DNA from: Candidatus Aenigmatarchaeota archaeon
Lineage (GTDB): Archaea; Aenigmatarchaeota; Aenigmatarchaeia; QMZP01
Direction of reading: 5' to 3'
Assembly (NCBI GenBank): GCA_030615165.1
Contig: JAUWZW010000003.1
Span: 1 to 37,333, forward strand
Length of the DNA: 37,333 bases
A model generated the notes under the pieces. That model did not search any database. It had not been told where the DNA came from and was given only the letters and a program-made list of their open reading frames with translations. A program made the position numbers and the translations under genes. This document shows positions 19,366-37,326 of this stretch, one piece after another; within the stretch, counting starts at the first letter, position 1; every line of letters begins with the position of its first letter.

Positions 19366-19453
19366 CAGGGTTTTGATAGTCAGTAATACTTAAAAAGCTT
19401 TCCATCAATTATTTATGAGTATAATTCCCACATTTCCCATTCAGGTGAGTTTA

Positions 19454-20377: not shown

Positions 20378-20386
20378 GATGATACT

Positions 20387-21157: not shown

Positions 21158-21178
21158 ATCTTTGTAAGTGGTGACTAT

Positions 21179-23177: not shown

Positions 23178-23218
23178 TTTTTAAAGAATTTATACATATC
23201 TGGATAATTAATTATTAG

Positions 23219-26200
23219 GTGAAGGATTTGGTCAAGTGTAAGGATGTCGGGGGTCCAGATTGGTGCGATGAGGATGCGGAATATGTAAGGACATATAGGG
23301 AGAGGGGAGGTACTTACGTTGAGCTGAGATGTCCATCCGGTCATTTAAGTGTAATTCCTGTTTCTGAATACAGAGACAAAGTCAGGGCAGAAGAAGCAGC
23401 AAGAAGGATAACCAATGCGGATATTGCGCACTTAAGAATAGAGATAGAATCCATGGTTTTCCAGAGGTTGCCTGAGCGGCAGATGATAAATGAGGTTGTT
23501 CTTTACCTTGAGTCAACAGGAAGGTATGCAGCTTTGAAGAGGGAGGAACTTGAAAAAACAGCACGCAAGCTGTTGGATTTGGTTAGAAAGAAAATAGAAA
23601 AAGAAAGGCTGGGAGCTGTAAGTAAATACATATGTCCTGATTGCAAGAAGGTTTACCTGAATGAAAAGCCCGGGGCGGATGGCAACCTTCTTTATTACTT
23701 CTGCACAGAGTGCAAGAAAAAATTCTCTCCACGTGATATAAAGAGAAGAAAGGTTTATGGGAAGCCTGGTTGGTTGAAGAGGAGAAAGGCATACAGAGAG
23801 AAGAAAAAGGAGTTGAAAGGCACTGCAATCAAAAAGGAGTTGGAGGAGCTTGAAACCTTGGAAGAGAGAAGGCGAGCAGGTTTATTAACTGCTGATGAGC
23901 ATGAAAGGTTGTTAGAATTAAGGGGGACTGCAGCAGAAAAAAGGGAGGAATTCAAGGGTACACTCTTTGGTGCCAAGAAAGAATATAAAACTGGTGTGAG
24001 TGAGCTAAAGGAAAAGGCCAAAGCAGAGAAATGGACCAGGGTAAAATACAAGGAAGAAAAGAGAAAGCTCAAGGAGAAGTACATTAGAAGCAAAAGGGAA
24101 TATAAAGAGAAAGTGGGGAAAGAGAAAGAGAAGAGAAAGGCGCACATAGGAAAGAGGGTAACCGGTTTTATTGAAGATAAATGGGGCAAGGACGTGATGA
24201 AGGCATTTATCGTGATTCTCTTTGCTGCCCTGGGCTTTGCTATCTCAGGTGCTTTTGGAAGCATTTTATTCCTGTTCGGGTTCCTTTCATTGGCTCTTTA
24301 CTACATTTTCCCGAGCCCTGATGAAGAAACCCCGCCCCGGGAGCTGGCGAGACAACTCAAGGAAAACCCCCTGACATGGAGGATGGTGGGGTCAAGGGCC
24401 TTCCTGAGGAATCCCCACACGGTCTGGGGGTTCTTGAAAACAATCTTTAAACTGTCAACATTCATACTGTTCATTTTCGGTGTCTGGTACAGCCCGATGG
24501 TTCCGTTCAAGAATATAGTTTTGATAATACTGTGCTTTGGGGCATACTTCTCGCTCAAGATGACCTATAACACTCATATGCCGCACCAGTTCATAGAATC
24601 CGTGATAAGGTTTGGTCTGCTTGGGGCGTTCTTCATACCGTGGGTTATATTCTACGGGATTTTCCAGTCAGGTCTTCTTGCCCTGCTTGCAATGGCATTC
24701 TTCATGATTCCGCCCATAGCAGAGGACAAGCAGAATACTGAAACCTTTGCAATGTATGAAATGTTTGATAAATTCATATTTTTTGGTTTCATGCTCGTTG
24801 CGCTCATTGCATCCGGGGTTCTGCCTCTTCCATGGTTTGGTGAAGTTGGATGGAAACTTACAGGAACCCTCCAGTGGACATTCCTCTACTTCTGGGTTGT
24901 TTCCTTTGTTGCAGGATTCTTCTCTCCTGCACAGACAAGACCTGCAATGGGTTTCATAATGCTAGGCGCTGCTACCATAATCTACGGCATAGGGCCTGGG
25001 GCGCAGGAGTTCGGGACAGCTTTGCTTGGTCCCTGGTATCCTGTTATACAGAATCTTTTCAGCTCAATTGCAAAGCCGTTTGCTGAAGTATTCGGCCAGT
25101 TTGCAAACACATTCGGCAGTGCCCTGATGCTGCTTGTAAATCCTGTTGGGTATGCGCAGTCTATAATGAACGGAACGTATGCAAGGGATACCACTACAGG
25201 TTTGCAGGGCGCGTACGGCATTGAGATAGAGAGGTTTGAGGTAATGCCCATATACACAGAGAGCCCTTATGTTGTAAGTGTCATGGTTAAGAACAAGGGG
25301 GCGTTTGAGGCAAGGAATGTAATAGTTGCACTTGTCCCGAGCGTTAATGTACCCAGGGAGGAAAAGAGCTGGGTTTGGGGTGTCAAGGAGGCTGTGCTTA
25401 TTATACCGAAAGCTGCTGTGGCAGTTGGAGGTTGGAATCCTCTTAGTATTGAAGTGCACATGCCGTTTCTGAGGCCTAACATAACCATGACAAAGGAAGG
25501 GCTGGGATTTGTTGAAGAGCCTGATACGGACAGGGGCATAACACAGAAATGCATAGATGACAGGCGGTGTGTATTTGCCATAGGCAACATGACAAAGCTG
25601 CAGACAAGCCAGGCAAACTTCTACTCTGATGGTATAATGTGCCCTGCAGTGGTTAATTATGGCTTGATGACAAAGGAAAAGGCGAAAGTGCTCCCGTTCA
25701 TAGGCATGATACAGTATGACTACAACATAAGCTCGAACCTTGAGGTTGAGGCAATGAGCAAGGAGGAATGGGAAAGGCAGGTGGAGGAAATGGAGCTGCA
25801 GCCAAAGTTCAAGAAGCTTACAACCTTCACAAATGCGCCTGTCATGCTCAATCTGGACACACTGGAGCAGCCCATACTGGAGGGCTCACCATTCCATATA
25901 GCCCTGAACATTGTGTCTGCGCACAAGAAGGGGAGGGTAGTGGGCAATGCTACTGTAAGGTTGGAGATACCAACCAACTTCACGAAGGGGAAGGGAGAAG
26001 AAAACCTGCCTCCCTGCGTGCCGGATAAGATCAAACCCAAAATTATAAAGCAAGATGATACAACAACACTTCTCGAATGGAAAGGTCTCACCGAGCCTTA
26101 TGCCATATTCTGCAGCTTCCCTCCTGTGAAGGTTCCTGAAGGTCCTACAATAACATACATGGTAAGGGCTGATGCTAGTTACACATTCAGCAAGTGGGAC

Positions 26201-26617
26201 ACACTTGATACAAGGATGCAGTTCGGGGGGACAGCATGCTGCAAGAAATCCGAGGACTGTCCGATTCCCGGTCAGATATGCGACACATCAATAAATAAAT
26301 GCGGGGCTGGGGAAATTGATATTAGCGAAAGATTGTCTGAGCTTGAGGCGCGTATGAATGAACTCCAGAATGAAGTGGACCAGATAACAGAGGAGTTTGC
26401 TGATAAGCTTATAGTGGACATAAATGCATATGACCAGCTTCTGGATGAGATGGGCATCCTTAAACAGCAATACTCAGGTGATGCTGAGGTCATATCGGCT
26501 ATAGAGAATGTTGAAACCAGTGTTAATAATGCAATAAAAGTGGCATGTGAAAAATGCAGGAGATGGGGTGTGGATTGTCCATCAGACATCTGCAGTTCTG
26601 TGGGTGTTGATTTATAA
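23219..26617 (+). CDS. giant (1132 aa) polytopic membrane protein: N-terminal zinc ribbons + K/E-rich coiled coil + ~8 TM + large beta-rich domain + Cys-rich segment + C-terminal coiled coil
   Basis: The N-terminus has CKDVGG..WCDED...RCPSGH and YICPDCKK...YYFCTECKK zinc ribbons. A highly charged KEKxK block (aa ~190-300) follows. The hydrophobic core spans aa ~330-620. The long C-terminal soluble region has CARDB-like strands (YVVSVMVKNKGAFEARNVIVALVPSV). The coiled coil is EIDISERLSELEARMNELQNEVDQITEEF. Confidence 0.75.
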   Translation: MKDLVKCKDVGGPDWCDEDAEYVRTYRERGGTYVELRCPSGHLSVIPVSEYRDKVRAEEAARRITNADIAHLRIEIESMVFQRLPERQMINEVVLYLESTGRYAALKREELEKTARKLLDLVRKKIEKERLGAVSKYICPDCKKVYLNEKPGADGNLLYYFCTECKKKFSPRDIKRRKVYGKPGWLKRRKAYREKKKELKGTAIKKELEELETLEERRRAGLLTADEHERLLELRGTAAEKREEFKGTLFGAKKEYKTGVSELKEKAKAEKWTRVKYKEEKRKLKEKYIRSKREYKEKVGKEKEKRKAHIGKRVTGFIEDKWGKDVMKAFIVILFAALGFAISGAFGSILFLFGFLSLALYYIFPSPDEETPPRELARQLKENPLTWRMVGSRAFLRNPHTVWGFLKTIFKLSTFILFIFGVWYSPMVPFKNIVLIILCFGAYFSLKMTYNTHMPHQFIESVIRFGLLGAFFIPWVIFYGIFQSGLLALLAMAFFMIPPIAEDKQNTETFAMYEMFDKFIFFGFMLVALIASGVLPLPWFGEVGWKLTGTLQWTFLYFWVVSFVAGFFSPAQTRPAMGFIMLGAATIIYGIGPGAQEFGTALLGPWYPVIQNLFSSIAKPFAEVFGQFANTFGSALMLLVNPVGYAQSIMNGTYARDTTTGLQGAYGIEIERFEVMPIYTESPYVVSVMVKNKGAFEARNVIVALVPSVNVPREEKSWVWGVKEAVLIIPKAAVAVGGWNPLSIEVHMPFLRPNITMTKEGLGFVEEPDTDRGITQKCIDDRRCVFAIGNMTKLQTSQANFYSDGIMCPAVVNYGLMTKEKAKVLPFIGMIQYDYNISSNLEVEAMSKEEWERQVEEMELQPKFKKLTTFTNAPVMLNLDTLEQPILEGSPFHIALNIVSAHKKGRVVGNATVRLEIPTNFTKGKGEENLPPCVPDKIKPKIIKQDDTTTLLEWKGLTEPYAIFCSFPPVKVPEGPTITYMVRADASYTFSKWDTLDTRMQFGGTACCKKSEDCPIPGQICDTSINKCGAGEIDISERLSELEARMNELQNEVDQITEEFADKLIVDINAYDQLLDEMGILKQQYSGDAEVISAIENVETSVNNAIKVACEKCRRWGVDCPSDICSSVGVDL

Positions 26618-27342: not shown

Positions 27343-28272
27343 TTAGCCCTGAGTCGGCTGCTTCAGCAGCTTTTCAACCACTTCAGAAACTACCAGCCAT
27401 CTTCCCTTGTCACCAGGTTGTTTCTTGATGACTTTGTCACCGGCAAACCTGTCACGTAGTTGACGTGATTCTTGATTTGACAGATTGAACTTGTCTCTTA
27501 CCTGACTTCTGTTGAATGTTTCTTTATCTTTGAGGTATTCCAATTTCTTCCTGTAATCATCGTCAATGACAGGTTTTTCCTCTTGGGCAACGGTGGTAGG
27601 GGCAGCAGTTGTTGCCGATTCTGGTTCTGGCTCAGCAGGCTCGGGTACGGGTTGCTCGGTTTCGGCAACTGGTTCCTCAGCCTCTGCAGTGGTCTCTGCA
27701 GGCTCTTCCTTTGGCTGCTGCTCAATCTCGGTCTTGATAACCTTTAGCGTTCCCAAATCCAGAAGGGTCTGAAGAATTTCAGGGGTCATTATGCATTCCC
27801 TGCCTTTGTGTTCAACAAATGAACCGAGAACACCAAGTTTCTCCAGCTTGGTTAGAACCGAATCGGCTTCTGCACGTTTGATGCCCAATGATTTAAGCAC
27901 CTTATCATACAGGGAACCCACACCCCAGTTCTTGCCCTTGCCACCGGCAACAACAATGCTGATGATTTTGAGCATTTCTTCGGAAATCTGGGTTGTTTCA
28001 GCAGCTGGAGGGGGAGTAGGTTCAGCGGGTTCGGTGGGTTCAGGTGTTTCAGCGGGCTCATGGGATTCGGGTGTTTCAGGCGCAGTTACTGTCTGGAGCC
28101 CCTCAACTTTTGAAGTGTCAAGCTCCTCCTGAGGCTGGTCAACTGCAGGAGGAGGTTCTTCGATGCCCTGCTGCCGGGGTTGCTTGTCCGGTTGGGACTT
28201 TGACCCCGCGACCAAGATGCCCGCTACTATTAATAACGCGAGTAATACTAAACAAAGTGTTCCTAAATCCAT
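27343..28272 (-). CDS. membrane-tethered protein with Pro/Glu-rich linkers and two small globular (possibly winged-helix-like) modules
   Basis: 309 aa with an N-terminal TM (LCLVLLALLIVAGILVAG). The linkers are PETPESHEPAETPEPTEPAEPTPPP and EPAETTAEAEEPVAETEQPVPEPAEPEPE. GAGGTGA lies 4 nt upstream of the ATG. Confidence 0.55.
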   Translation of the reverse strand: MDLGTLCLVLLALLIVAGILVAGSKSQPDKQPRQQGIEEPPPAVDQPQEELDTSKVEGLQTVTAPETPESHEPAETPEPTEPAEPTPPPAAETTQISEEMLKIISIVVAGGKGKNWGVGSLYDKVLKSLGIKRAEADSVLTKLEKLGVLGSFVEHKGRECIMTPEILQTLLDLGTLKVIKTEIEQQPKEEPAETTAEAEEPVAETEQPVPEPAEPEPESATTAAPTTVAQEEKPVIDDDYRKKLEYLKDKETFNRSQVRDKFNLSNQESRQLRDRFAGDKVIKKQPGDKGRWLVVSEVVEKLLKQPTQG

Positions 28273-28725: not shown

Positions 28726-29149
28726 AATAAAACCTTTGAGACACGCTTATCAGGAACCAGGAAGGGGTTCTTCCCGGGTTAAAAAGGATTTGATAGGTTC
28801 GGCTATACAAAAACCCTCATCCCAAGACCGAATGCATGCGCCTATAAGTTTTATGCATTGTTAACTTCTCAAGGCACAATATGGTTTGGGATTCGGTTAT
28901 AGCCAAGTTCTTCAATGTTGTCTGCAACAGAATATTTATTCAAATATCCTGAGGACCCGAATGGGTTTCATGTGATGTTGTATTTGTGGAATATGATGAT
29001 ATGATGTATTGAATATGAAAGTGATATTGCTTAATTATACAGGGGAAAGCTTTATAAACCTTTCTGTATTTGTCACTGTAAAGAAGTTAAATATTTGTTA
29101 TATTTGGTTTATTCTTTGACGCCGTTAAGTTGACAGTTACAAAAGGAAA

Positions 29150-29185
29150 GGCGGGGCTGGTTCTTGGGAACCATATAACCCCGCC
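29150..29185. terminator. conserved GC hairpin GGCGGGGCTGGTTC ttgg GAACCATATAACCCCGCC downstream of the PspA-like gene
   Basis: Followed (on the minus strand) by TTTCCTTTTGTAACTGTCAACTTAAC. This is the same module as at 26634-26685. Confidence 0.6.
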
Positions 29186-29208
29186 TCTTGTCGCCATCTT
29201 GTCGTCAA

Positions 29209-30114
29209 TTAGTTGTTCACATCAGGGGACAGTATTACTACTTCAGGCTCGGCACTTTCAGGCTCCGGCTCTGCAGCAGCTGGCTCCTCAGTGCTGGCAG
29301 GCGGCTCGGTGCCGAAGTAAGCGTTGATTGCTTCAGTAGCATTCCTTGGCCCAACCTCGGCTTCCCAGTCAACTATCTCACCCCTGCCTGTTCCAACCGC
29401 AGTTTCACGGGTAACCCTCAGATCAGCTTCAAGCTCCAGATAACGGTTCTGAAGGGCGTTCATTGCCCTTGTGACACCGCTGGCAGAACCAAGGGGGTCG
29501 CCCTTGATAGCCTTAACAAGTTCTGAAACCTGAACCTCTACCTGTTTGGCAGCGATCTTGGCTTCCCATTCCTGGATTTTGCCCGTAAGTTCATTAACCT
29601 TGTTGGTAGCAATAACCAGCTGACTCTTTGCCTCTTCTATCTCTCTGCTAAGCCCCTCAAGAAGGATTTCCTTCTCTTTTATTTCTGTATCCAGGGCTTT
29701 GCAGCGGTCGATCCGGAGGAGGGCATCCTGGTTAACCTGCTCCCAGGTATAGGATTTGTTGTTGACTGTGATGGAATTGCCAGGCTGGCTGTTGGCAAGA
29801 ACCGTCTTGACTTTCTTCAGTATGGCCTCATTGCCTGCCTTGCGCTCTTTGAGCTCTTCAACATCTTCTGCGATAAGATTTGCCTTGATTTCACCCCTGC
29901 TGATATTCACATGATAGTTGCGAATTTTTCCTCGGCATTTCTCAGCTTCATCTTTGGCTATATCCACAAGGGTGTTAAGAGAGGCCTTATCGTCAAGATA
30001 ATCCGCAACACGTTTGCCCCTTGCATTGATGTGAGCACCCAGGTTGGGGACAATTGTCCAACCTAATACAGCAACTATGGCGACAGCCACTACAATAATC
30101 CAAAAAGTTTTCAT
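29209..30114 (-). CDS. N-terminally anchored coiled-coil protein, PspA/IM30/ESCRT-III-like (tentative), with acidic/Pro tail ending ...VVILSPDVNN
   Basis: The probable start is MKTFW (GAGGTG 6 nt upstream). The track ORF start at 30123 appears to be a GTG. The TM is WIIVVAVAIVAVLGWTIV. Long amphipathic helices (LIAEDVEELKERKAGNEAILKK...; ...GSASGVTRAMNALQNRYLELEADLRVTRE) resemble the PspA helix pattern. It is about 65% identical to 31037..31858. Confidence 0.6.
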   Translation of the reverse strand: MKTFWIIVVAVAIVAVLGWTIVPNLGAHINARGKRVADYLDDKASLNTLVDIAKDEAEKCRGKIRNYHVNISRGEIKANLIAEDVEELKERKAGNEAILKKVKTVLANSQPGNSITVNNKSYTWEQVNQDALLRIDRCKALDTEIKEKEILLEGLSREIEEAKSQLVIATNKVNELTGKIQEWEAKIAAKQVEVQVSELVKAIKGDPLGSASGVTRAMNALQNRYLELEADLRVTRETAVGTGRGEIVDWEAEVGPRNATEAINAYFGTEPPASTEEPAAAEPEPESAEPEVVILSPDVNN

Positions 30115-30120
30115 AATACA

Positions 30121-30245
30121 CACCTCTTTTCTTCACAAAAAGGGTTAACATTTTTGCAAGCTTCCTCAATAATCTGTTCTGTCTGTTTGGGGGATTTTCT
30201 GAATAACCTCCTTTCTGCCAGGGACCCATGCCAGGCAGACAGAAA
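30121..30245. repeat. promoter/5'UTR block copy 1, duplicated at 31863..31987 with near identity
   Basis: About 115 nt are almost identical: ...TTCACAAAAAGGGTTAACATTTTTGCAAGCTTCCTCAATAATCTGTTCTGTCTGTTTGGGGGATTTTCTGAATAACCTCCTTTCT..GGGACCCATGCCAGGCAGACAGAAA. It contains an inverted repeat TCTGCC...GGCAGA. Confidence 0.7.
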
Positions 30246-30299
30246 TATTGGTTCAGCTTGCATCAGTAAGAAACGCTAATACACGAGTCCTTTATTAAC

Positions 30300-30923
30300 T
30301 TAATGTTTATGAACCAAAGACCGCCTTGGTTCCGGGAATTTCTTTCCCGTAACATTCTCATAGAGCCTGGCAAGATTCTTCTCAAGATTCCTCATGTGTC
30401 TGGGGTAAAGGGAAATCACCTTTATACCGTGCTTTCTATAAAGCCATTTCTTTCCATTCATTTTCTCCACGTAGTTCATATCATCATCAGCCAAGCCCCA
30501 GAACTCAATGAAAACCTTTTCTCTGGGCAGATAAAAGTCCGGTCTGAGTTCTATGCCGTCAAGAATCAAAGGGTGCTCATACCTGTATGTGATGCCCCGC
30601 TTGTCAAGCAGTTCTGCTATCCGTTTCTCTGACCTGCTTCTGACCCTGACTCCTGAGTTGGTTCTTACGCTTCTTCCGTTGTATAATGCCCATGTATCAA
30701 GTTTGTCCAAAAGCAGGGAGAGATAGAATTTTGCTCTGATAAGCCAGTCCAAAAACCGGTTTCCTGTCCTTTTAAATTGGGGTCTTTTGGTGCCCCCGCG
30801 GATGAATGAGAAGATGGCCTTGTCCAGTCTGCTGAATTCCCTGCCAGGTGTATTGATAACCGCATCGTCAAGTCTGTCAAGTACCCACATTATTATCCTC
30901 CTTTTCGGTTTTTGCTTATTCAC
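30300..30923 (-). CDS. hypothetical protein, possible DUF559/Vsr-like (PD-(D/E)xK-type) nuclease fold
   Basis: 207 aa. RPDFYLPREKVFIEFWG resembles the RxDF...IE.DG core of endonuclease-like DUF559 domains. This is weak. Confidence 0.4.
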   Translation of the reverse strand: MNKQKPKRRIIMWVLDRLDDAVINTPGREFSRLDKAIFSFIRGGTKRPQFKRTGNRFLDWLIRAKFYLSLLLDKLDTWALYNGRSVRTNSGVRVRSRSEKRIAELLDKRGITYRYEHPLILDGIELRPDFYLPREKVFIEFWGLADDDMNYVEKMNGKKWLYRKHGIKVISLYPRHMRNLEKNLARLYENVTGKKFPEPRRSLVHKH

Positions 30924-30952
30924 ATCTGTTCACCTCTTTCTTAACCAAGAAA

Positions 30953-30988
30953 AGGCAGGGGCTGGTTGGAACCATATAACCCCTGCCT
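30953..30988. terminator. third copy of the conserved hairpin (AGGCAGGGGCTGGTT GGAACCATATAACCCCTGCCT)
   Basis: It lies between the stop of 31037..31858 (-) and the start of 30300..30923 (-). On the minus strand it is followed by TTTTCTTGGTT. Confidence 0.6.
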
Positions 30989-31036
30989 CTTTTAACCAGG
31001 TAATTGCTCCCTACACCAGGGAACACAAGTGCTGGC

Positions 31037-31858
31037 TCATTCGCTTTGCCCTGAGAAGTAGGCGTCAATTGCTTCAGCAGCTTTCCTTGGTGCGATATCG
31101 CCTTCCCAGTCAACGATGTTATCCCTGCCTGTTCCGACCGCGGTTTCACGGGCAACCCTTACATTGGCTTCAAGCTCCAGATAGCGGTCCTGAAGGGCGT
31201 TCATTGCCCTTGTAATCCCGCTGGTAGAACCAAGGGGGTCGCCCTTGATAGCCTTAACAAGTTCTGAAATCTCGACCTCTACCTCTTTGACAGCGATCTT
31301 GATTTCCCATTCCTGGATTTTTCCCGTCAGCTGGTTGGTTTTATCAATAGCAATAACCATCTGCCTCTCCGCATCTTCTATCTCTCTGTTGAGCCCATCA
31401 AGAAGGGTTTCCTTCTCTTTTATTTCGGTATCCAGGGTTTTGCAGCGGTCGATCCGGAGGAGGGCATCCTGGTTAACCTGCTCCCAGGTATAGGATTTGT
31501 TGTTGACTGTGATGGTGTCGCCAGGCTGGTTTTCCTTAAGAGCCTTCCCTGCTTTCTTGAGTATGGCCTCGTTGCCTGCCTTGCGCTCCTTGAGCTCTTC
31601 AACATCTTCTGCGATAAGATTTGCCTTGATTCTGCACCTGCTGATGTTCATCTGGTACTCAGATATCCTTTCAAGGCTTTTCTGGACTTCCTTTTTAGCA
31701 ATGTCAATGAGCTCCTGCAGAGACGCCTTCTTGTCAAGGTACTCCGCAGCACGCTCACCCTTTGCACTGATGTGAGCGCCCAGGTTGGGGATGACTGCAG
31801 AGGCAATGGCACCAAGTATGCAGACAGCCACCACGATAATTAGTATTTTTCTAAACAT
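31037..31858 (-). CDS. PspA/IM30/ESCRT-III-like (tentative) membrane-anchored coiled-coil protein, tandem paralog of 29209..30114
   Basis: The probable start is MFRKILIIVVAV (GAGGTG 4 nt upstream). Many stretches of about 75 nt are identical to the paralog at nucleotide level (e.g. 31441-31516 matches 29700-29775). The C-terminus differs (...AYFSGQSE). Confidence 0.6.
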   Translation of the reverse strand: MFRKILIIVVAVCILGAIASAVIPNLGAHISAKGERAAEYLDKKASLQELIDIAKKEVQKSLERISEYQMNISRCRIKANLIAEDVEELKERKAGNEAILKKAGKALKENQPGDTITVNNKSYTWEQVNQDALLRIDRCKTLDTEIKEKETLLDGLNREIEDAERQMVIAIDKTNQLTGKIQEWEIKIAVKEVEVEISELVKAIKGDPLGSTSGITRAMNALQDRYLELEANVRVARETAVGTGRDNIVDWEGDIAPRKAAEAIDAYFSGQSE

Positions 31859-31862
31859 AATA

Positions 31863-31987
31863 CACCTCTGTTTCTTCACAAAAAGGTTAACATTTTTGCA
31901 AGCTTCCTCAATAATCTGTTCTGTCTGTTTGGGGGATTTTCTGAATAACCTCCTTTCTACCCGGGACCCATGCCAGGCAGACAGAAA
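31863..31987. repeat. promoter/5'UTR block copy 2
   Basis: See 30121..30245. Confidence 0.7.
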
Positions 31988-32055
31988 ACTGACCCGGCCT
32001 GCGTTAAGGAAACAACAGAATTACATGAATCCTCTGTTAACAATAACCGTTTATA

Positions 32056-32727
32056 TCAGCCAATAAGACTTCCTGTAATCATCAGGTTTGCAAGCACAAG
32101 CAGGACACCCAGAGATAAAATGCTCCAGGCAATGGCCCACCCAAGGGCATGGACCTTTGTCATGCTCTGCAACTGCTCTGCATCCGTGTCCCCGCTCTGC
32201 CTGTGCCAGAGCCTTTTCCTGTAATGGCTTATAACAACAAAGGAATAGAGCACAGAACACAACCCAATAAATCTTGCGATAAAGTTTTCAATTGCGCCCG
32301 TAAGGAATATCCCGGCAGCAATAAGCGCTATTCCCGTGGCAATCGAGGAGAAGAACATCCTGGAATCCCTGACCCAGAGGAGCGTAAGGAGCAGGACCAT
32401 CAGGCCCATGAATGTGAGCGCATGGCCGGATGCATTTGTGTACGTCAGGTAGAAAAAGAAGAACCCGATAAGGATGCTGCCCAGGTATCCTGCATTCAGT
32501 ATTAGAAATGTGTTTCCTCCAAGGGTTTCTGTAATCCAGTATCCCCTTACTTTGTCGAATACTATCCCCTTTACCCTGCCTCCTGTAAGCACTGCTGCAA
32601 GGGCATGGCTGGCCTCATGGTAGAGGATGGTGAGCAGCCTTATGGGATAGGTGAAAATACTCCTCCAGCTCATCCATACAAGGATGAAGAGAAGGAGCAT
32701 GAGGATTAATTCTCTGAAATTATCCAT
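32056..32727 (-). CDS. membrane-embedded HExxH zinc metallopeptidase-like protein (site-2-protease/M50-like, tentative)
   Basis: LTILYHEASHALAAVLTGG places HExxH inside a TM helix. There are 5-6 TM segments. The likely start is MDNFRE (GGAGGTG 6 nt upstream). Confidence 0.45.
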   Translation of the reverse strand: MDNFRELILMLLLFILVWMSWRSIFTYPIRLLTILYHEASHALAAVLTGGRVKGIVFDKVRGYWITETLGGNTFLILNAGYLGSILIGFFFFYLTYTNASGHALTFMGLMVLLLTLLWVRDSRMFFSSIATGIALIAAGIFLTGAIENFIARFIGLCSVLYSFVVISHYRKRLWHRQSGDTDAEQLQSMTKVHALGWAIAWSILSLGVLLVLANLMITGSLIG

Positions 32728-32771
32728 GGTAACACCTCCTTTCACAAAACAAGGATTGCCATAACATTTTT

Positions 32772-33845
32772 CTAACGCTTCGGTTTTTGCTTGACCTCAA
32801 AACCTTTCCAAACTTGATGGGGAAGTGGGGATTGTTTTTTCTCTGGCCGGGACTTCTTTGGTTCTGACTTCTCTGGCCGGGATTTTTTGCCGCTCTTTTC
32901 TTCATTTTTTTTCAGGATACTCTCAATTCTCTCATATGCTTTACTATCCTTCTTTTGTTCCTTAAGGGCGGCTCTGAGCTCCGGCTCCACCTCGGTGCCT
33001 AAGTCCACCAGTATGAAGGTGGCATGGTCCTGAATAGCACCGGAACCCTTCAAGCTGTCATTAATGATCCTCCTAACTGGTGACCTGTCTGCCGGGTTAG
33101 TCTGGATGAGTGACTTGTCAGCATATAAACTTAATTTCCTTTCTTCAGGATCGCTGTTTTTTGCATAGTAGCTTTCCATAATCACCTTCAGTACAGGGAC
33201 AGCCGCCTTTGCATTGGGGCCTATCTCTCCTAGGGCTTTTATTGCTGCCAGGCGCACATGAATCTCAGAATCACCCACGGCTGTTTTTACAAGCGCAGGA
33301 ACAGCAGGAGCAGATGCAGGGCCTATCTTTCCCAGGGCTTCTGCAGCAGCTAATCGTATATTACCATATCTGTCAGACAGTTTGGTGTTGAGTGTCTTGA
33401 CTGCATCCTTAGCCCTGGATCCCATCTTCCCTATGGCATTGATAACTGCTACCTGCAGCACCTTCGGTTGCGAATCACCAAGGCTTTTAACAAGCGCGCT
33501 TACTGCTTCTTTTGTATCCTCTGCATCCGGACCTATTTCACCAAGTATTTCAGCAGCAGCAATGCGTATATCAGCGCTTTTACTGCCTAGCTGCTTTATC
33601 AGCGGCTTTACAGCAGGCCTGCCTATCTTTACCAGGGATTTTTGAACGTTCTTTTTTATTCCGGTATCCTTGTATTTCTCGCAGAGGAGTTTGACAAGCT
33701 CTTCAGCGACATCTGCTTCTGTTGGTATGTTGGGGTTTGCCTCGGTATTGGCCTTTTCAGGCACATAGCCCATCGCGATGTTACAGCTGTACAGGATCGG
33801 CAGCAGAACTATTAGTATTCTTATTGTCTTGTTCAGGTGTTTCAT
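32772..33845 (-). CDS. secreted/lipo HEAT-repeat (PBS-lyase-type) protein with a K-rich C-terminal tail
   Basis: The signal peptide is MKHLNKTIRILIVLLPILYSCNIAMG. Repeats are IRIAAAEILGEIGPDA, IRLAAAEALGKIGPAS and VRLAAIKALGEIGPNA. The tail is KKSRPEKSEPKKSRPEKKQ. Confidence 0.65.
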   Translation of the reverse strand: MKHLNKTIRILIVLLPILYSCNIAMGYVPEKANTEANPNIPTEADVAEELVKLLCEKYKDTGIKKNVQKSLVKIGRPAVKPLIKQLGSKSADIRIAAAEILGEIGPDAEDTKEAVSALVKSLGDSQPKVLQVAVINAIGKMGSRAKDAVKTLNTKLSDRYGNIRLAAAEALGKIGPASAPAVPALVKTAVGDSEIHVRLAAIKALGEIGPNAKAAVPVLKVIMESYYAKNSDPEERKLSLYADKSLIQTNPADRSPVRRIINDSLKGSGAIQDHATFILVDLGTEVEPELRAALKEQKKDSKAYERIESILKKNEEKSGKKSRPEKSEPKKSRPEKKQSPLPHQVWKGFEVKQKPKR

Positions 33846-33906
33846 TTATTCGCCTCCTTTCGTTCAAAAACAGGGAAGGGGGCGACCCGAGTAAGCATCG
33901 CCCCGG

Positions 33907-34992
33907 TTAGGTTAAACTGTCCAAACCATCTGGATACCACTTGTCCAGGTCTTTCAGAGAAACACTGGGCCTGGAATCCTGAAGGGCCACCAGGAAGTCC
34001 TGCATGCAGACAGGTCTTACCTGGTTCCTGGCCAGATGGGTGCTGCGCAATAGGGCTGCACGCCTTGCCTTCTGGGCAAGGCCCTTTACCAGGTCTGCAC
34101 CGGAGAAGAGCCTTGTTCTTTCAGCGAGCAGGTCGTAATCAATGTCATCTGTTGTTGGTACTCCATTCATGCTTTTCACGAGAATCTCTTGTCTCTCATG
34201 GATGAGAGGAAGGCCGACAAATATCACCTCGTCGAACCTGCCGGGTCTTTTCAGAGCCGCCCTCATGATTTCTGGTTTGTTGGATGTGCCAACCATCATG
34301 AGCATGTTGTTGTTGCCGTTCCGGCCAAGAAACCCGTCTGTCTCATTCAGGAACTGTGAATTGACTGACTTCTGTATCTCGGAATTTGATTCACGGAGAA
34401 ATCCCTCAATCTCATTGATTATTATCACCACACGCTTGTAACGCCTTACAACCCTGAACAGCTCCCGGACACATTTTACTGATGCCTCCTGGCTCTTCCT
34501 GATTATGTCGGCTGTTGTTATCTCAAAGACCACCATACTGACCTCGTTTGCAACAGCCTTGGCGAGCATGCTCTTGCCGTTGCCGGGCGGACCGACAAGG
34601 AGTATTCCGCCGCCTTCCACAATCTTCAGGAGCCTGGCCTTGTCCCTGTGCTGTAATGGTGTCAGGGCCCGGATTTTAATTTCCTGTTTGGGTTTGTTAA
34701 GGCCGACCACGTCACTAAACCTGACCCTTTGGATTTCGGATTTGTTAACAGGTCTGAACATGGGCTCGTTCGCAGCAACCATTTTGCTTTTTGCAGGAGC
34801 TTTCTTTTTCCTGCTGCGCATGGCAGAAGCTGTCCTTTTACAGCCCCATATGATGAAATCAACAATATGCTCGGCAGTGGTAAAGAGCAGGGACATTGCA
34901 AAGTCAGCAAGGCCCCTGCCCCTTTTGGCCCACTTTCTTCTGGAAGACCCCGGCAATGGTAATGCAAAACCGGATTTTCTGTGCCTTTTCAT
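33907..34992 (-). CDS. AAA+ ATPase (classic AAA clade) with an atypical Walker B (IIINEIE)
   Basis: Walker A is GPPGNGKS. Sensor-1 is TSN. The Arg-finger region is ALKRPGRFDEV. The C-terminal helical lid is FSGADLVKGLAQKA. Walker B reads VVIIINEIEG, with Asn where Asp is expected. It overlaps the upstream gene by 4 nt. Confidence 0.75.
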   Translation of the reverse strand: MKRHRKSGFALPLPGSSRRKWAKRGRGLADFAMSLLFTTAEHIVDFIIWGCKRTASAMRSRKKKAPAKSKMVAANEPMFRPVNKSEIQRVRFSDVVGLNKPKQEIKIRALTPLQHRDKARLLKIVEGGGILLVGPPGNGKSMLAKAVANEVSMVVFEITTADIIRKSQEASVKCVRELFRVVRRYKRVVIIINEIEGFLRESNSEIQKSVNSQFLNETDGFLGRNGNNNMLMMVGTSNKPEIMRAALKRPGRFDEVIFVGLPLIHERQEILVKSMNGVPTTDDIDYDLLAERTRLFSGADLVKGLAQKARRAALLRSTHLARNQVRPVCMQDFLVALQDSRPSVSLKDLDKWYPDGLDSLT

Positions 34993-35663
34993 TGGGGGCC
35001 TCCTTTATTAACATCTACATTCTTCCAGTCCTCATCATTTATCAAGCCCTCTCTGAGCTGCTTCTCCAGCTGTTCCAGTCGCTTTTTGTCTGCATAATCC
35101 CTGATGAGCTTTTCAGATACCTTCACGAGTTTCACCATCTCTGGATTTTCCGTGATTGTACCTGTTGTCTTTACCATGGCAATGACCTCGCGGAGCTTCA
35201 TGTCCTGGTTGGCCAGGGAATCGTTAAAGGACTCCAGCTGTTTCAGCTGCTCTTTCATGTTGCTTATCTTCTTCCTGAGGATGTTGCATTCCTCGGAGTT
35301 CGGGTCATTCTTCTCATAGTTAATGCTGACCGTGAGGGAGTTTTCTTCCAGCTGGATTCTGTCCTTCACACTCTCTATCTGCTCCTTTATCATCTTCCGC
35401 ATTTCGCCCATCCGCATGATTATGACTCCTATGTGCTCAGCAGAGGGATTGTCCAGTATGCCGGGGTTCCCTGGGTTCCCGGGGTTTTCCTGGGGTGCCT
35501 CATGAGACTGCCATTTCTCATACAGTATGTCGTACGTCGGCCGCAGATAAATGCCAAGGGCAAAGCCCACGATAAGAACGACTACCAGGGCAAACAATGA
35601 TCCGAAAAGTCCGTTCTTTTTTGGAACCTTGGAGGGCTGCTGAATTGTCTGTTTATTCTCCAT
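34989..35663 (-). CDS. N-terminally anchored coiled-coil protein
   Basis: 224 aa. AGGAG lies 8 nt upstream of the ATG. The TM is LFGSLFALVVVLIVGFALGIYL. It has a (NPG)3 motif, then long heptad-like segments (IKEQIESVKDRIQLEEN...KISNMKEQLKQLESFNDSLANQDMKLRE). Confidence 0.55.
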   Translation of the reverse strand: MENKQTIQQPSKVPKKNGLFGSLFALVVVLIVGFALGIYLRPTYDILYEKWQSHEAPQENPGNPGNPGILDNPSAEHIGVIIMRMGEMRKMIKEQIESVKDRIQLEENSLTVSINYEKNDPNSEECNILRKKISNMKEQLKQLESFNDSLANQDMKLREVIAMVKTTGTITENPEMVKLVKVSEKLIRDYADKKRLEQLEKQLREGLINDEDWKNVDVNKGGPQ

Positions 35664-35703
35664 AATTCAAACTCCTTTCTGACGCTGTTGCGCCTTTAAA
35701 GGT

Positions 35704-37326
35704 TTACAAATCTCTGGTCTGGAAAAGCTCACAAACCCTTAAGTTACATACTTTAAAGGCTGAAAACATCACACCTATGAAGGCAGATGTGCTGTATATC
35801 AGCAGGGATACCGTATGTATCCACCAGTACCTGAAGTCCAGGATTGAACCAGAAGCATATTTCACAAGGGATATTCCGCTGTTTAGCAGGGTGTTTCTGA
35901 TAATGGGCTCTGCAAGACCTAAAAAGAAGACTGAAGAAATACCTGCCAGCCCCACTATCACAATAACCATCATCACATATATCCAGATTATCCCTGACCT
36001 GCTTGCACCTGCAGACCTCAGTATTCCCATGCGGAACATCCCGGAACGGGTGTTCATCCATATTATCACTAGGATGTTCACCGTGCCGACTATGAGGGTA
36101 CCCAGCACAACAATAAACACGAAGGAAAACAGGGACCTTCCGAGCCTTATCAGGCCCTCCTGTTGAGCGAGGGAATCCTCGGTCTCATAGCCCATTCCCC
36201 TGAGATGTGCAACCACAGGCCGCACCTTATCAATGTTCTTCACATAGACATTGCAGGCTATCCTGCCCTGGCTCTTGTAGATTTCGTGCGGATGTATGAA
36301 CCCCCTGTCAGTGTCATAGTCCAGCAGGCCTTCTTTCCAGAGGGATATCCTATTTGCCAGGTCTACCGGGATATAGCCCCTGTCCCCGGAAACAACCCCT
36401 GCGATGCGCGTCTCTATGTTAAGGCTTGGTTCAAAGAGGAGCTGTTTGTCCTTCTTGAACAGCAGGGTGACGGGCTTGCCGACAATAAACCGCGGTTCAA
36501 TACCCAGCTCCTTTAGTGCTTCTTCCGGCAGGACAGCCTGGTATTCAGAGGTGTCGGACAGCCATCCGCCTGCCTTCAGCCCACCGTTCATGAACATTGT
36601 CATGTCATTGGCATAGCTGCTCATCAGGGTGAAGTCCTTTGATGCACTGGTGCCACTGTCCTGTTGGGCCGGAACCAGGGATGCCTTTGCCGTGATATTC
36701 GGGCATACATTAATGAACATGCGCTCGCTTCTCAGTATGGGAAGGAGCTTCTCATCCATCTTGCCGTCACTGGATATGGCGTCTGTCACATTGTAGCATA
36801 CAATCATCCTGCTCTTTAAGGAGAAAAGCGGCTTCACAGAAAATCCGTCCAGGTATCCCAGCACCTTCTGGTAGTTTGTAACATCCGGGAGCATGATTTC
36901 CGCCATAACCGGTAGCATCTTCCTGGAGGGACCGAAGAAGAAGGCGGGGTTGGAGGCAACAAAATGCCTGTTGATAACCATCAGACCGGGAGGCAGGGAA
37001 TCACTTTTCACTCTTTTCAGAAGGATTTTATGGTGACCCAGGGTGAAGCGGCTCACATCAGAGTAGTATGGGCAGTCGTGATAGTTGATTAATATCTCAT
37101 TGGATTCCATGGAACCGTGATTCCTGGCCCATCCAAAGGGCAGGCGGGTTATTGAGGGGTCGTTGCATATAACAGGTGTGAATATCTGCTCCCTGCTGTA
37201 ATTGCTGAATTTTATTGTTTTGTTAGGGAGCATCTCCAGCTCCACAAGCTCGAGGGTAAAGGGCTCAATACTCATGCGTTTCAGGTATTTTCCCACCTCG
37301 TTCTTGGACATGTGAAGTATTGCCAT
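35704..37326 (-). CDS. FtsX/MacB-like ABC-transporter permease, probably 5'-partial (extends past the window end)
   Basis: The C-terminal FtsX-type domain has 3 TM helices and the GILRSAGASRSGI motif. A roughly 380-aa N-terminal soluble region has no TM1 in-window. The frame stays open to position 37333. Confidence 0.6.
   Translation of the reverse strand: MAILHMSKNEVGKYLKRMSIEPFTLELVELEMLPNKTIKFSNYSREQIFTPVICNDPSITRLPFGWARNHGSMESNEILINYHDCPYYSDVSRFTLGHHKILLKRVKSDSLPPGLMVINRHFVASNPAFFFGPSRKMLPVMAEIMLPDVTNYQKVLGYLDGFSVKPLFSLKSRMIVCYNVTDAISSDGKMDEKLLPILRSERMFINVCPNITAKASLVPAQQDSGTSASKDFTLMSSYANDMTMFMNGGLKAGGWLSDTSEYQAVLPEEALKELGIEPRFIVGKPVTLLFKKDKQLLFEPSLNIETRIAGVVSGDRGYIPVDLANRISLWKEGLLDYDTDRGFIHPHEIYKSQGRIACNVYVKNIDKVRPVVAHLRGMGYETEDSLAQQEGLIRLGRSLFSFVFIVVLGTLIVGTVNILVIIWMNTRSGMFRMGILRSAGASRSGIIWIYVMMVIVIVGLAGISSVFFLGLAEPIIRNTLLNSGISLVKYASGSILDFRYWWIHTVSLLIYSTSAFIGVMFSAFKVCNLRVCELFQTRDL

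What the first reader, a model, noticed from the sequence alone, without database searches (positions are those of the whole stretch)
29209..31987. Tandem duplication of a PspA/ESCRT-III-like membrane-anchored coiled-coil gene together with its promoter/5'UTR
Genes 29209..30114 and 31037..31858 share long stretches of identical nucleotides. Their upstream 115-nt regions, including the SD and an inverted repeat TCTGCC-N14-GGCAGA, are near-identical (30121-30245 vs 31863-31987). The duplicates are separated by an inserted DUF559-like gene and a copy of the conserved hairpin. The identical leader suggests shared regulation such as a structured 5'UTR or operator. The helical pattern resembles PspA/Vipp1/ESCRT-III, but with an N-terminal TM anchor, which is unusual for that superfamily.
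Basis: partly seen in the sequence, partly recalled or inferred. Interest (0 to 1): 0.7.

Follow-up and report, generated by a model that had tools for sequence, protein, structure and literature searches.

The report
Duplicated PspA-like gene, conserved RNA leader
An archaeal contig carries two tandem copies of a membrane-anchored coiled-coil gene, which is ordinary, but each copy is preceded by a folded RNA leader that matches no Rfam family, is far better conserved than the protein, and probably controls the gene's expression.

Summary
Two minus-strand paralogs (29209-30114 and 31037-31858) are 81% identical in DNA, and their 125-nt leaders are 122/125 identical. Each copy ends in a terminator-like hairpin.

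The duplication is an old copy of a whole expression cassette, later patched by gene conversion. orf207, the "inserted DUF559-like gene", is actually the ancestral partner. Copy B is the insert.

The protein belongs to a rare family of about 120 representatives. It has an N-terminal TM helix and a long helical hairpin. Its link to PspA/IM30 is weak but consistent and below Pfam's threshold. TM-anchored PspA/Snf7-like proteins in AAA/ABC/permease operons were already described by Ravi et al. 2024.

The interesting part is the leader. A roughly 145-nt element (30150-30294 and 31892-32036) also precedes orthologs whose proteins are only 23-38% identical. It is non-coding and matches no Rfam family. 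Two long-range helices, P1 and P2, show compensatory changes and cross each other as a pseudoknot. G·U outnumbers A·C 57 to 4, so the signal is in the sense-strand RNA. Between the helices lie an invariant Shine-Dalgarno-like AGAAAGGAGGU and a C-run.

Most likely this is a new cis-regulatory leader RNA. Its signal and mechanism are unknown.

The parts
29209..30114 (-). Copy A: a 301-aa protein with an N-terminal TM helix, a long helical hairpin and an acidic Pro/Glu-rich tail.
   Evidence: ORF. Family and alignment. Sub-threshold PspA_IM30 hit (E = 0.0075, 16.3 bits).
31037..31858 (-). Copy B: a 273-aa paralog, 71% identical in protein, without the acidic tail. It is the inserted duplicate.
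   Evidence: AF2 model with pLDDT 83: TM 2-22, helix 47-109, beta-hairpin 115-124, helix 125-205, helix 215-236. Single-copy loci lack it.
30150..30294 (-). Structured RNA leader element, copy A. The full leader runs on to the start codon at 30114.
   Evidence: Covariance-model hit of 148 bits, E = 5.6e-28. Covariation.
31892..32036 (-). Structured RNA leader element, copy B. The full leader runs on to the start codon at 31858.
   Evidence: Covariance-model hit of 145 bits, E = 2.3e-27.
30281..30290 (-). P1 5' strand, copy A (GGACUCGUGU). It pairs with 30222-30231. In copy B the strand is 32023-32032.
   Evidence: Found as the best helix. 98% of cells paired, with one pair split CG:7/UA:6. Coordinates.
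30222..30231 (-). P1 3' strand, copy A (GCAUGGGUCC). In copy B the strand is 31964-31973.
30255..30261 (-). P2 5' strand, copy A (GCAAGCU). It pairs with 30156-30162. In copy B the strand is 31997-32002.
   Evidence: Predicted independently by RNAalifold. 3 pairs show double changes on the structure-naive alignment, and 5 of 7 on the model-fitted one. Coordinates.
30156..30162 (-). P2 3' strand, copy A (AGCUUGC). In copy B the strand is 31898-31903.
30214..30239 (-).
   Evidence: 89% paired, almost all changes one-sided and G-U compatible. Pairing drops to 54% on the antisense strand. Its loop is the P1 3' strand, so P1 and P3 probably cannot both form fully (inference).
30205..30216 (-). Near-invariant Shine-Dalgarno-like block AGAAAGGAGGUU, about 90-100 nt upstream of the real start. 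In copy B it is 31947-31958.
   Evidence: GAAAGGAG is invariant in all 13 copies. No start codon follows it at a usable distance (read from the sequences).
30183..30199 (-). Conserved C-run block GAAAAUCCCCCAAACAG. It could pair with the SD-like block (P4). In copy B it is 31925-31941.
   Evidence: P4 is 96% paired but nearly invariant, so covariation says nothing about it.
29147..29188 (-). Terminator-like hairpin plus U-tract after copy A.
   Evidence: -28.4 kcal/mol, z = -4.45.
30950..30991 (-). Terminator-like hairpin plus U-tract after copy B.
   Evidence: -26.6 kcal/mol, z = -3.08.
30300..30890 (-). orf207 (196 aa from the ATG): a PD-(D/E)xK nuclease-fold protein and the conserved upstream partner of the family.
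   Evidence: PADLOC HEAT_CxxC_PD-DEXK, E = 8.6e-21 over residues 84-184. No Pfam domain. Sits directly upstream of the family gene in 10 of 13 loci, including the Saccharibacteria-labelled contig L005.
32056..37326 (-). Conserved upstream module: M50B peptidase 32056-32745, HEAT-repeat protein 32772-33845, AAA ATPase 33907-34992, TM coiled-coil protein 34989-35663, and an FtsX-type permease 35704-37326 that is cut by the window end.
   Evidence: Pfam. Synteny in L001, L004, L010, L018 and L107. The AAA is closest to the Cdc48/p97 D2 domain.

Best explanation
A complete expression cassette was duplicated in tandem in an ancestor of this lineage. The cassette consists of a structured RNA leader, the gene for a membrane-anchored PspA/IM30-like coiled-coil protein, and a terminator hairpin. 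The new copy (B) landed between the M50B peptidase gene and orf207.

The two copies have since diverged, but they are repeatedly homogenised in patches by gene conversion. That explains the long identical runs and the 98%-identical leader block.

The leader is not conserved merely because of the duplication. It is an old, roughly 145-nt non-coding RNA element that also precedes single-copy orthologs in distantly related genomes. It folds on the sense strand into two long-range helices, P1 (10 bp) and P2 (7-8 bp), which cross as a pseudoknot. Two local hairpins (P3, P4) enclose an invariant Shine-Dalgarno-like AGAAAGGAGGU and a C-run.

The most likely function is inferred, not shown. The element would act in cis on the downstream gene's mRNA to set translation or stability in response to a signal, which could be a protein partner or a small molecule. 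It may work by switching between P1 and the mutually exclusive P3, and it may use the SD-like block as a ribosome decoy or standby site. This would give both paralogs the same post-transcriptional control.

The protein is most likely a distant, membrane-tethered relative of PspA/IM30. It would work at the membrane together with the conserved ABC/FtsX permease, AAA ATPase, M50B peptidase and PD-(D/E)xK module.
For: Duplication and its history
- Cassette alignment and identities.
- Single-copy loci have the order M50B, orf207, leader, gene (L004, L010, L016, L017, L107). L018 has M50B, leader, gene.
- Variable coding blocks group by paralog type: winA is closest to L2A and winB to L2B. High-identity blocks group by genome: in codons 113-160, winA-winB is 0.94 and L2A-L2B is 0.88, against 0.81 between orthologs. 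That pattern is gene conversion.

Leader
- It is present upstream of orthologs with 23-38% protein identity.
- L010 has stops in all three frames, and close copies differ by 1-2-nt indels, so it is non-coding.
- No Rfam match.
- RNAalifold finds P2 with compensatory changes.
- On the structure-naive MAFFT alignment, 92.5% of cells pair against 28-49% when partners are slid, and 0/500 shuffles reach the covariation score.
- On the CM alignment, 8 pairs show double changes against 3.7 +/- 1.2 in shuffles, again 0/500.
- G-U to A-C is 57:4. Antisense pairing falls to 54% for P3 and 83% for P1.
- The covariance model finds only these two copies in the window and none in 0.8 Mb of unrelated DNA.

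Protein
- 122 family representatives of consistent length, with the TM helix present in 67/71.
- PspA_IM30 is the dominant Pfam match, in 16/71 members with best E = 5e-8. The register is consistent; for example P0036 residues 52-230 align to profile positions 28-182.
- Best PDB matches of the family profile are Vipp1/PspA at E = 1.7e-4.
- hhalign gives P = 1.2e-4 against about 0.1 for reversed controls.
Against: - Only 13 leader copies from about 9 lineages were available, with no transcript data.
- AT-rich, TATA-like sequence sits just upstream of the P1 5' strand. If that is the promoter, the P1 5' strand might not be transcribed.
- The single-sequence fold of the leader is not unusually stable (z = -1.3).
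- P3 and P4 have little or no true covariation.
- The proposed switch and the role of the SD-like block are inference only.
- The PspA link is below Pfam's threshold for every member tested and covers mainly helices alpha3-alpha4.
- Fold matches are non-specific.
- The short, basic N-terminus before the TM helix looks like a signal anchor, so the coiled coil could be extracytoplasmic. That would not suit a PspA-like role.
- The neighbouring AAA ATPase is Cdc48-like rather than Vps4-like and has no MIT domain.
Confidence: 0.6

Rival explanations
1. The protein is not a PspA relative. It is a generic coiled-coil hairpin displayed outside the membrane, and it couples to the large extracytoplasmic domain of the neighbouring ABC/FtsX-type permease. 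The coiled coils of EnvC, PcsB and RipC couple to FtsEX in this way.
For: - Every long locus has an ABC ATPase and a roughly 1150-aa FtsX-domain permease upstream, including L013, which lacks AAA, M50B and orf207.
- The N-terminus is a short basic stretch followed by about 20 hydrophobic residues, like a signal anchor.
Against: - PspA_IM30 is specifically enriched among Pfam hits, 16 members against at most 3 for any other coiled-coil family.
- Profile matches to PspA/Vipp1 keep a constant register and beat reversed controls by three orders of magnitude.
- There is no LytM, CHAP or NlpC domain, and no remnant of one.
- K/R residues are more numerous after the TM helix than before it in 46 of 67 members.
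Confidence: 0.25
2. The conserved leader is a DNA-level signal. The distant inverted repeats would be operator half-sites for a transcription factor acting at the promoter, rather than RNA helices.
For: - P1 is a long-range inverted repeat (GGACTCACG ... CGTGAGTCC).
- Its 5' arm lies just downstream of AT-rich, TATA-like sequence, which is where an archaeal repressor site could sit.
- P4 and much of the core are invariant, as a protein-binding site would be.
Against: - Departures from Watson-Crick complementarity are almost all G-U, 57 against 4 A-C. Independently drifting DNA sites would give both kinds about equally.
- Pairing is much poorer on the antisense strand.
- P2 flips between A-U, G-C and G-U even between close orthologs, for example winA against L001A.
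Confidence: 0.07
3. The element is a separate small RNA gene or an intercistronic processing/stability site in a polycistronic transcript. It would not be a sensor that regulates translation of the downstream gene.
For: - In copy A the element starts only about 12 nt after the orf207 stop codon (from the coordinates). In copy B it starts about 25 nt after the M50B stop. Both fit read-through transcription.
- A T5 run follows P2 in some copies.
Against: - In every locus the element is on the same strand as a family gene and 85-100 nt upstream of its start. It was duplicated together with that gene.
- The T-run is not conserved.
Confidence: 0.1
4. The identical leaders are only a by-product of a recent duplication or gene conversion and have no function of their own.
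For: Gene conversion does operate between the copies. The 98% identity of the 125-nt block is higher than that between orthologs.
Against: - The element precedes single-copy orthologs whose proteins are only 23-38% identical, and it is much better conserved than they are.
- The upstream third of the element has diverged between copy A and copy B to 62% identity, yet it keeps P1 and P2 pairing.
Confidence: 0.03

Closest known systems
PspA / IM30 (Vipp1) family, PF04012, in the ESCRT-III superfamily
   Same: - Size of about 220-270 aa for the helical part.
- A long alpha1 / alpha2+3 helical hairpin followed by shorter helices.
- Weak sequence-profile similarity in a constant register over alpha3-alpha4, including the loop plus the 'A..a...R' motif.
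- Association with the membrane.
   Different: - An N-terminal transmembrane helix replaces the amphipathic helix alpha0.
- A small beta-hairpin sits at the hairpin tip (residues 115-124).
- Scores are below Pfam's gathering threshold.
- None of the known Psp partners (PspB/C/F, LiaI/F) is present.
- Topology is unresolved.
Membrane-anchored divergent Snf7/PspA proteins in AAA+ / ABC ATPase / permease operons (Ravi et al. 2024, mSystems, PMC11237479; example OGG56892.1)
   Same: A TM-anchored, coiled-coil, PspA/Snf7-like protein encoded with a classical AAA+ ATPase, an ABC ATPase and a permease.
   Different: - Their example is bacterial. It has a two-domain AAA+ protein and a PBPB+OmpA solute-binding protein.
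- The cluster here has a single-domain Cdc48-like AAA, an M50B peptidase, a PD-(D/E)xK protein, HEAT proteins and a VWA protein.
- I could not test whether the two protein families are the same.
- No RNA leader is described in that paper.
Cis-regulatory structured leader RNAs (riboswitches and protein-binding leaders)
   Same: - A conserved non-coding element immediately upstream of one gene family, on the sense strand.
- Helices supported by compensatory changes, a pseudoknot, and invariant unpaired blocks.
- A possible pair of mutually exclusive helices, P1 and P3.
   Different: - No match to any of the 4227 Rfam families.
- No known ligand or binding protein.
- The SD-like block is about 90 nt from the real start codon, so the usual picture of sequestering the gene's own SD does not obviously apply.
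- The transcription start is unknown.
FtsEX with EnvC / PcsB / RipC coiled-coil partners
   Different: - No hydrolase or degenerate hydrolase domain.
- The protein carries its own TM anchor.
- The permease is about 1150 aa, far larger than FtsX.
- Sequence profiles point to PspA rather than EnvC.

Membership tests
PspA/IM30 (Pfam PF04012) | Score at or above Pfam's gathering threshold of 33.9 bits. | tested here: not met
   Copy A scores 16.3 bits (E = 0.0075) and copy B has no hit. Family members tested individually score 26.8 and 24.1 bits. 16/71 members hit at E <= 0.01, with best E = 5e-8.
PspA/IM30 (Pfam PF04012) | Profile-level sequence similarity to bona fide PspA/Vipp1. | tested here: inconclusive
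   The family profile against PDB puts Vipp1/PspA on top at E = 1.7e-4, with query 133-237 aligned to 89-189. hhalign against an enterobacterial PspA profile gives P = 1.2e-4 and probability 56%, while reversed controls give P of about 0.1. Only alpha3-alpha4 is covered.
PspA/IM30 (Pfam PF04012) | An alpha1 / alpha2+3 helical hairpin followed by alpha4 and alpha5. | tested here: met
PspA/IM30 (Pfam PF04012) | An N-terminal amphipathic helix alpha0 for peripheral membrane binding. | tested here: not met
   It is replaced by a hydrophobic TM helix, present in 67/71 members.
PspA/IM30 (Pfam PF04012) | Assembly into rings or rods that remodel membranes. | not testable with these tools
   This needs purification and electron microscopy.
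ESCRT-III / Snf7 with Vps4 | A Snf7-family sequence match, plus a Vps4 partner with an MIT domain. | tested here: not met
   No Snf7 hit for either copy. The neighbouring AAA has a basic, hydrophobic N-terminus with no MIT domain, and it is closest to the Cdc48/p97 D2 domain. Only the short Vps4_C helix matches.
FtsEX-coupled coiled-coil activators (EnvC/PcsB/RipC) | A coiled-coil hairpin plus a C-terminal (pseudo)hydrolase domain, encoded with FtsEX. | tested here: not met
   Hairpin and linkage to an ABC/FtsX-type pair are present. No LytM, CHAP or NlpC domain is found.
Known RNA families (Rfam 15) | A covariance-model match. | tested here: not met
   No hit at E <= 1 over the element in the window or in six other loci.
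Cis-regulatory structured leader RNA (generic class) | Conserved secondary structure supported by covariation, on the sense strand, upstream of one gene family. | tested here: met
   The model finds the element only upstream of family genes.
Cis-regulatory structured leader RNA (generic class) | The element lies within the transcript (5' UTR), and its structure changes expression in response to a signal. | not testable with these tools
   No transcript data are available. The promoter scan covers bacterial promoter types only.
DUF559 / Vsr-like endonuclease (claimed for the intervening gene) | A Pfam DUF559 or Vsr match. | tested here: not met
   Only Vsr at E = 0.16 in Pfam and E = 0.011 in NCBIfam, far below the cut-offs. 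Homologs have no precomputed Pfam domain. The PD-(D/E)xK fold is supported by PADLOC at 8.6e-21.
Tandem segmental duplication with gene conversion | Paralogs group by type in some segments and by genome in others. | tested here: met
   Block-wise identity matrices for winA, winB, L2A, L2B and L4A.

The most novel reading that the evidence does not exclude
The leader is a new class of archaeal riboswitch-like sensor. It would be a pseudoknotted RNA that toggles between P1 and P3 on binding a small molecule or a protein of its own gene cluster, for example the PD-(D/E)xK protein encoded just upstream or the PspA-like product itself. In doing so it would switch on a membrane-stress effector. That would be the first dedicated RNA control of a PspA/ESCRT-III-superfamily gene.
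Probability: 0.25. Interest if true: 0.8.

Novelty: new member of a known kind. Interest (0 to 1): 0.55.

Why it matters
- **Few examples exist.** To my knowledge, few cis-regulatory RNAs are known in archaea. This candidate has good comparative support, matches no Rfam family, and is tied to a single gene family in a conserved membrane-associated gene cluster.
- **A different mode of control.** In bacteria PspA-type proteins are induced by envelope stress through protein regulators such as PspF and LiaRS. An RNA-based control of a PspA-like gene would be different, and it would give a direct experimental handle on what this uncharacterised cluster responds to. The cluster comprises an ABC/FtsX permease, an AAA ATPase, an M50B peptidase, a PD-(D/E)xK protein and the TM coiled-coil protein.
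- **Natural replicates.** The two paralogs share the 3' two-thirds of the leader but have diverged in the 5' third while keeping the pairing. That makes them a ready-made test of the structure.
- **The ordinary parts.** The duplication itself and the TM-anchored PspA-like architecture are not new.

Tried and rejected
- **Small peptide or uORF in the leader:** rejected. L010 has stops in all frames, close copies differ by 1-2-nt indels, and no start codon follows the SD-like block.
- **Second long-range helix a:c (UUUCCUUAA with UUGAGGAA):** rejected. It is no better than shuffled sequence in 10 of 13 copies.
- **Extra copies of the RNA element:** none found elsewhere in the window, and none in 88 viral-collection stretches that share the SD-like 15-mer.
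- **Defence-system reading:** PADLOC gave only generic AAA (IetA) hits and PD-(D/E)xK/HEAT domain hits, not a known system.
- **Vps4 partnership:** the AAA is Cdc48-like.
- **More close relatives:** genome and metagenome scans added only L004 and L005 and re-found L003. A search with the deep alignment failed because it lacks conserved peptide stretches.
- **Source organism:** not retrievable.
- **Single-sequence thermodynamic folding of the leader:** not informative, z = -1.3.
- **Sigma-70 promoter and terminator scan:** not applicable to archaea, and the counts were at chance.

Full report
**1. Observation**

Two minus-strand ORFs, 29209-30114 (301 aa, copy A) and 31037-31858 (273 aa, copy B), are clear paralogs.
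- Coding DNA is 80.8% identical, with exact runs of 77, 44 and 42 nt. Proteins are 71% identical.
- The 125 nt before each start (30121-30245 and 31863-31987) are 122/125 identical and include a 74-nt exact run and the Shine-Dalgarno AGAGGTG.
- The inverted repeat TCTGCC-N14-GGCAGA is exact in copy A (30214-30239). In copy B (31956-31981) it reads GGTAGA.
- Each gene is followed by the same stable hairpin and a U-rich tract. These sit at 29147-29188 (-28.4 kcal/mol) and 30950-30991 (-26.6 kcal/mol). The hairpin's core 16-mer occurs only at these two places in the window.

So a whole cassette of leader, gene and terminator is duplicated.

**2. The protein**

The window is archaeal. It encodes an aRF1/Pelota-type protein, and the closest named contig, L004, is labelled a Candidatus Aenigmatarchaeota MAG.

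Close relatives of the protein are extremely rare: six in 5.8 billion clustered proteins. An exhaustive profile search found 122 representatives, mostly 265-300 aa and matched end to end. An N-terminal hydrophobic helix is present in 67 of 71 aligned members.

With the 71-sequence alignment, AlphaFold gives a confident model (pLDDT 83). It shows:
- a TM helix at 2-22;
- a long antiparallel hairpin of helices 47-109 and 125-205, with a small beta-hairpin at its tip;
- shorter helices at 215-236 and 260-270.

Sequence evidence points to PspA/IM30, weakly but consistently.
- Copy A hits PF04012 at 16.3 bits, against a threshold of 33.9. Copy B does not hit it.
- 16 of 71 family members hit PF04012, and no other family is hit by more than 3.
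- Members tested individually reach 24-27 bits, with a register that maps residues 52-230 onto profile positions 28-182.
- The family profile's best PDB matches are Vipp1/PspA at E = 1.7e-4.
- hhalign against a PspA profile built from database sequences gives P = 1.2e-4 (probability 56%) over copy B residues 151-245 against PspA 98-190. Reversed-sequence controls give P of about 0.1.

I read this as probable distant homology, not membership. There is no Snf7 hit.

The TM anchor is not unprecedented. Ravi et al. 2024 describe a membrane-anchored divergent Snf7 protein in operons with PspA, AAA+ ATPase, ABC ATPase and permease genes.

Topology is unresolved. The N-terminus is only 3-4 residues and basic, like a signal anchor, yet K/R residues are more numerous after the helix in 46 of 67 members.

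**3. Context and history**

The paralogs end a conserved minus-strand module: an FtsX-type permease (cut by the window end), a TM coiled-coil protein, an AAA ATPase, a HEAT protein and an M50B peptidase. Related loci add an ABC ATPase and a VWA protein upstream.

The AAA is closest to the Cdc48/p97 D2 domain. It has a Vps4_C-like end and no MIT domain.

The gene between the paralogs, orf207, has no Pfam domain. Its C-terminal half is a PD-(D/E)xK nuclease fold (PADLOC E = 8.6e-21).

tblastn across 13 loci shows the following arrangements.
- M50B, orf207, leader, gene as a single copy in L004, L007, L010, L016, L017 and L107.
- M50B, leader, gene in L018.
- orf207 plus gene, without the leader, in L005 (labelled Saccharibacteria) and L108.
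- Both copies in L001 and L002.

So orf207 is an ancestral partner, and copy B is the inserted duplicate.

Block-wise identities show that variable coding segments group by paralog type, so the duplication predates the split from L002. High-identity segments group by genome: in codons 113-160, winA-winB is 0.94 and L2A-L2B is 0.88, against 0.81 between orthologs. That is concerted evolution by gene conversion, and it accounts for the long identical runs.

**4. The leader**

The leader core is also present upstream of orthologs whose proteins are only 23-38% identical to the window's (L007, L010, L016, L017, L018, L107). It is much better conserved than the proteins.

It is non-coding. L010 has stops in all frames, and close copies differ by 1-2-nt indels. 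No Rfam family matches.

Thirteen distinct copies were aligned.
- RNAalifold independently predicts P2 (GCAAGCU with AGCUUGC; copy A 30255-30261 with 30156-30162) with compensatory changes.
- A further helix, P1, comes out as the longest helix in most copies. In copy A it is GGACUCGUGU with GCAUGGGUCC, 30281-30290 with 30222-30231. It crosses P2 and P3.

On the structure-naive alignment, 92.5% of cells pair against 28-49% when partners are slid, and 0/500 shuffles reach the covariation score. P1 is 98% paired, and one of its pairs is split evenly between C-G and U-A. On an alignment made with a covariance model that did not include P1, 8 pairs carry double changes against 3.7 +/- 1.2 in shuffles (0/500). 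Those 8 include 5 of the 7 pairs in P2.

G-U cells outnumber A-C cells 57 to 4. On the antisense strand, pairing falls to 54% for P3 and 83% for P1. The constraint is therefore on the sense-strand RNA and not on DNA.

The model finds exactly two copies in the window (30150-30294 and 31892-32036), and none in 0.8 Mb of unrelated DNA.

Copies A and B are only 62% identical over the 55 nt that hold the 5' strands of P1 and P2, yet both keep the pairing.

**5. How it most likely works**

Shown:
- A duplicated cassette with gene conversion.
- A conserved, covarying, pseudoknotted RNA element immediately upstream of every archaeal-type family gene examined.

Inferred:
- The element lies in the mRNA, either in its own 5' UTR or in read-through from orf207 or M50B, and acts in cis on translation or stability.
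- The loop of P3 is the 3' strand of P1, so P1 and P3 probably cannot both form fully. That suggests a two-state switch.
- The invariant SD-like block lies about 90 nt from the real start and has no start codon after it. It could be a ribosome standby or decoy site, or the partner of the C-run.

None of these inferred steps is tested, and the signal is unknown.

Caveats: there are only 13 copies from about 9 lineages. AT-rich sequence just upstream of P1 could be the promoter. The single-sequence fold is unremarkable.

**6. Comparison, novelty and verdict**

- The duplication is ordinary.
- The protein is a new and rare family. It works like, and is probably distantly related to, PspA/IM30. 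It fails the family's threshold and lacks helix alpha0. An EnvC-like role as the outside partner of the FtsX-type permease remains a live rival (probability about 0.25).
- The leader is a new candidate cis-regulatory RNA motif: a new member of a known kind.

Overall interest is moderate, at 0.55, and nearly all of it comes from the RNA element.

Noticed in passing
window 32056-37326 (minus strand); L001, L004, L010, L013, L018, L107: A conserved multigene module recurs around the family gene in distant genomes. It comprises a VWA protein, an ABC ATPase, a roughly 1150-aa FtsX-domain permease, a TM coiled-coil protein, a single-domain Cdc48-like AAA ATPase, sometimes a HEAT protein, an M50B peptidase and a PD-(D/E)xK protein. 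I found no description of it. The AAA plus membrane metallopeptidase pairing resembles a split FtsH.
   Followed up: partly
window 30300-30890 and 32772-33845; L007 2397-3416; L107 2088-3185: orf207 matches the nuclease end of the PADLOC model HEAT_CxxC_PD-DEXK, and the nearby HEAT-repeat gene matches its HEAT end. It looks as if a protein that is fused in candidate defence systems is split into two genes here. HEAT genes also recur next to the family gene in L007 and L107.
   Followed up: partly
L005 559-1962 (contig labelled Saccharibacteria) and L108 1827-3262: The pair of orf207-like gene and TM coiled-coil gene also occurs on contigs that lack the RNA leader and, within the short stretches available, M50B. 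One of them is labelled as a CPR bacterium. That suggests a two-gene core that has moved between domains.
   Followed up: no
window 33907-34992 (minus strand): The first 70 or so residues of the AAA ATPase are very basic and contain a hydrophobic stretch (FAMSLLFTTAEHIVDFIIWGC) in place of an MIT or Cdc48-type N-domain. This suggests direct membrane association.
   Followed up: no
window 19415-26617 (plus strand): A block on the other strand encodes an SPFH/Band-7 protein, two unannotated proteins, a protein with two CarboxypepD_reg domains and a 1132-aa protein with no domain hit. The 1132-aa gene and the 378-aa gene at 17393-18529 are syntenic in L001. SPFH proteins are known partners of PspA in bacteria, but no link was tested here.
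   Followed up: no
window 27343-28272 (minus strand): Just downstream of copy A lies a 309-aa protein with an N-terminal TM helix and long Pro/Glu/Thr-rich linkers. Its composition resembles copy A's acidic tail. It has no family hit and only 44% identity to its counterpart in L001.
   Followed up: no
L018 2946-5927: The AAA ATPase in L018 is 71% identical to the window's, but its TM coiled-coil protein is only 23-24% identical. The coiled-coil gene therefore evolves much faster than its neighbours, or it has been replaced, while the RNA leader in front of it is retained.
   Followed up: no
window 30128-30149 (minus strand): In copy A the single-sequence fold pairs CCCUUUUU with AAAAGAGG, which partly covers the real Shine-Dalgarno sequence. 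This local hairpin is not conserved in distant copies.
   Followed up: partly
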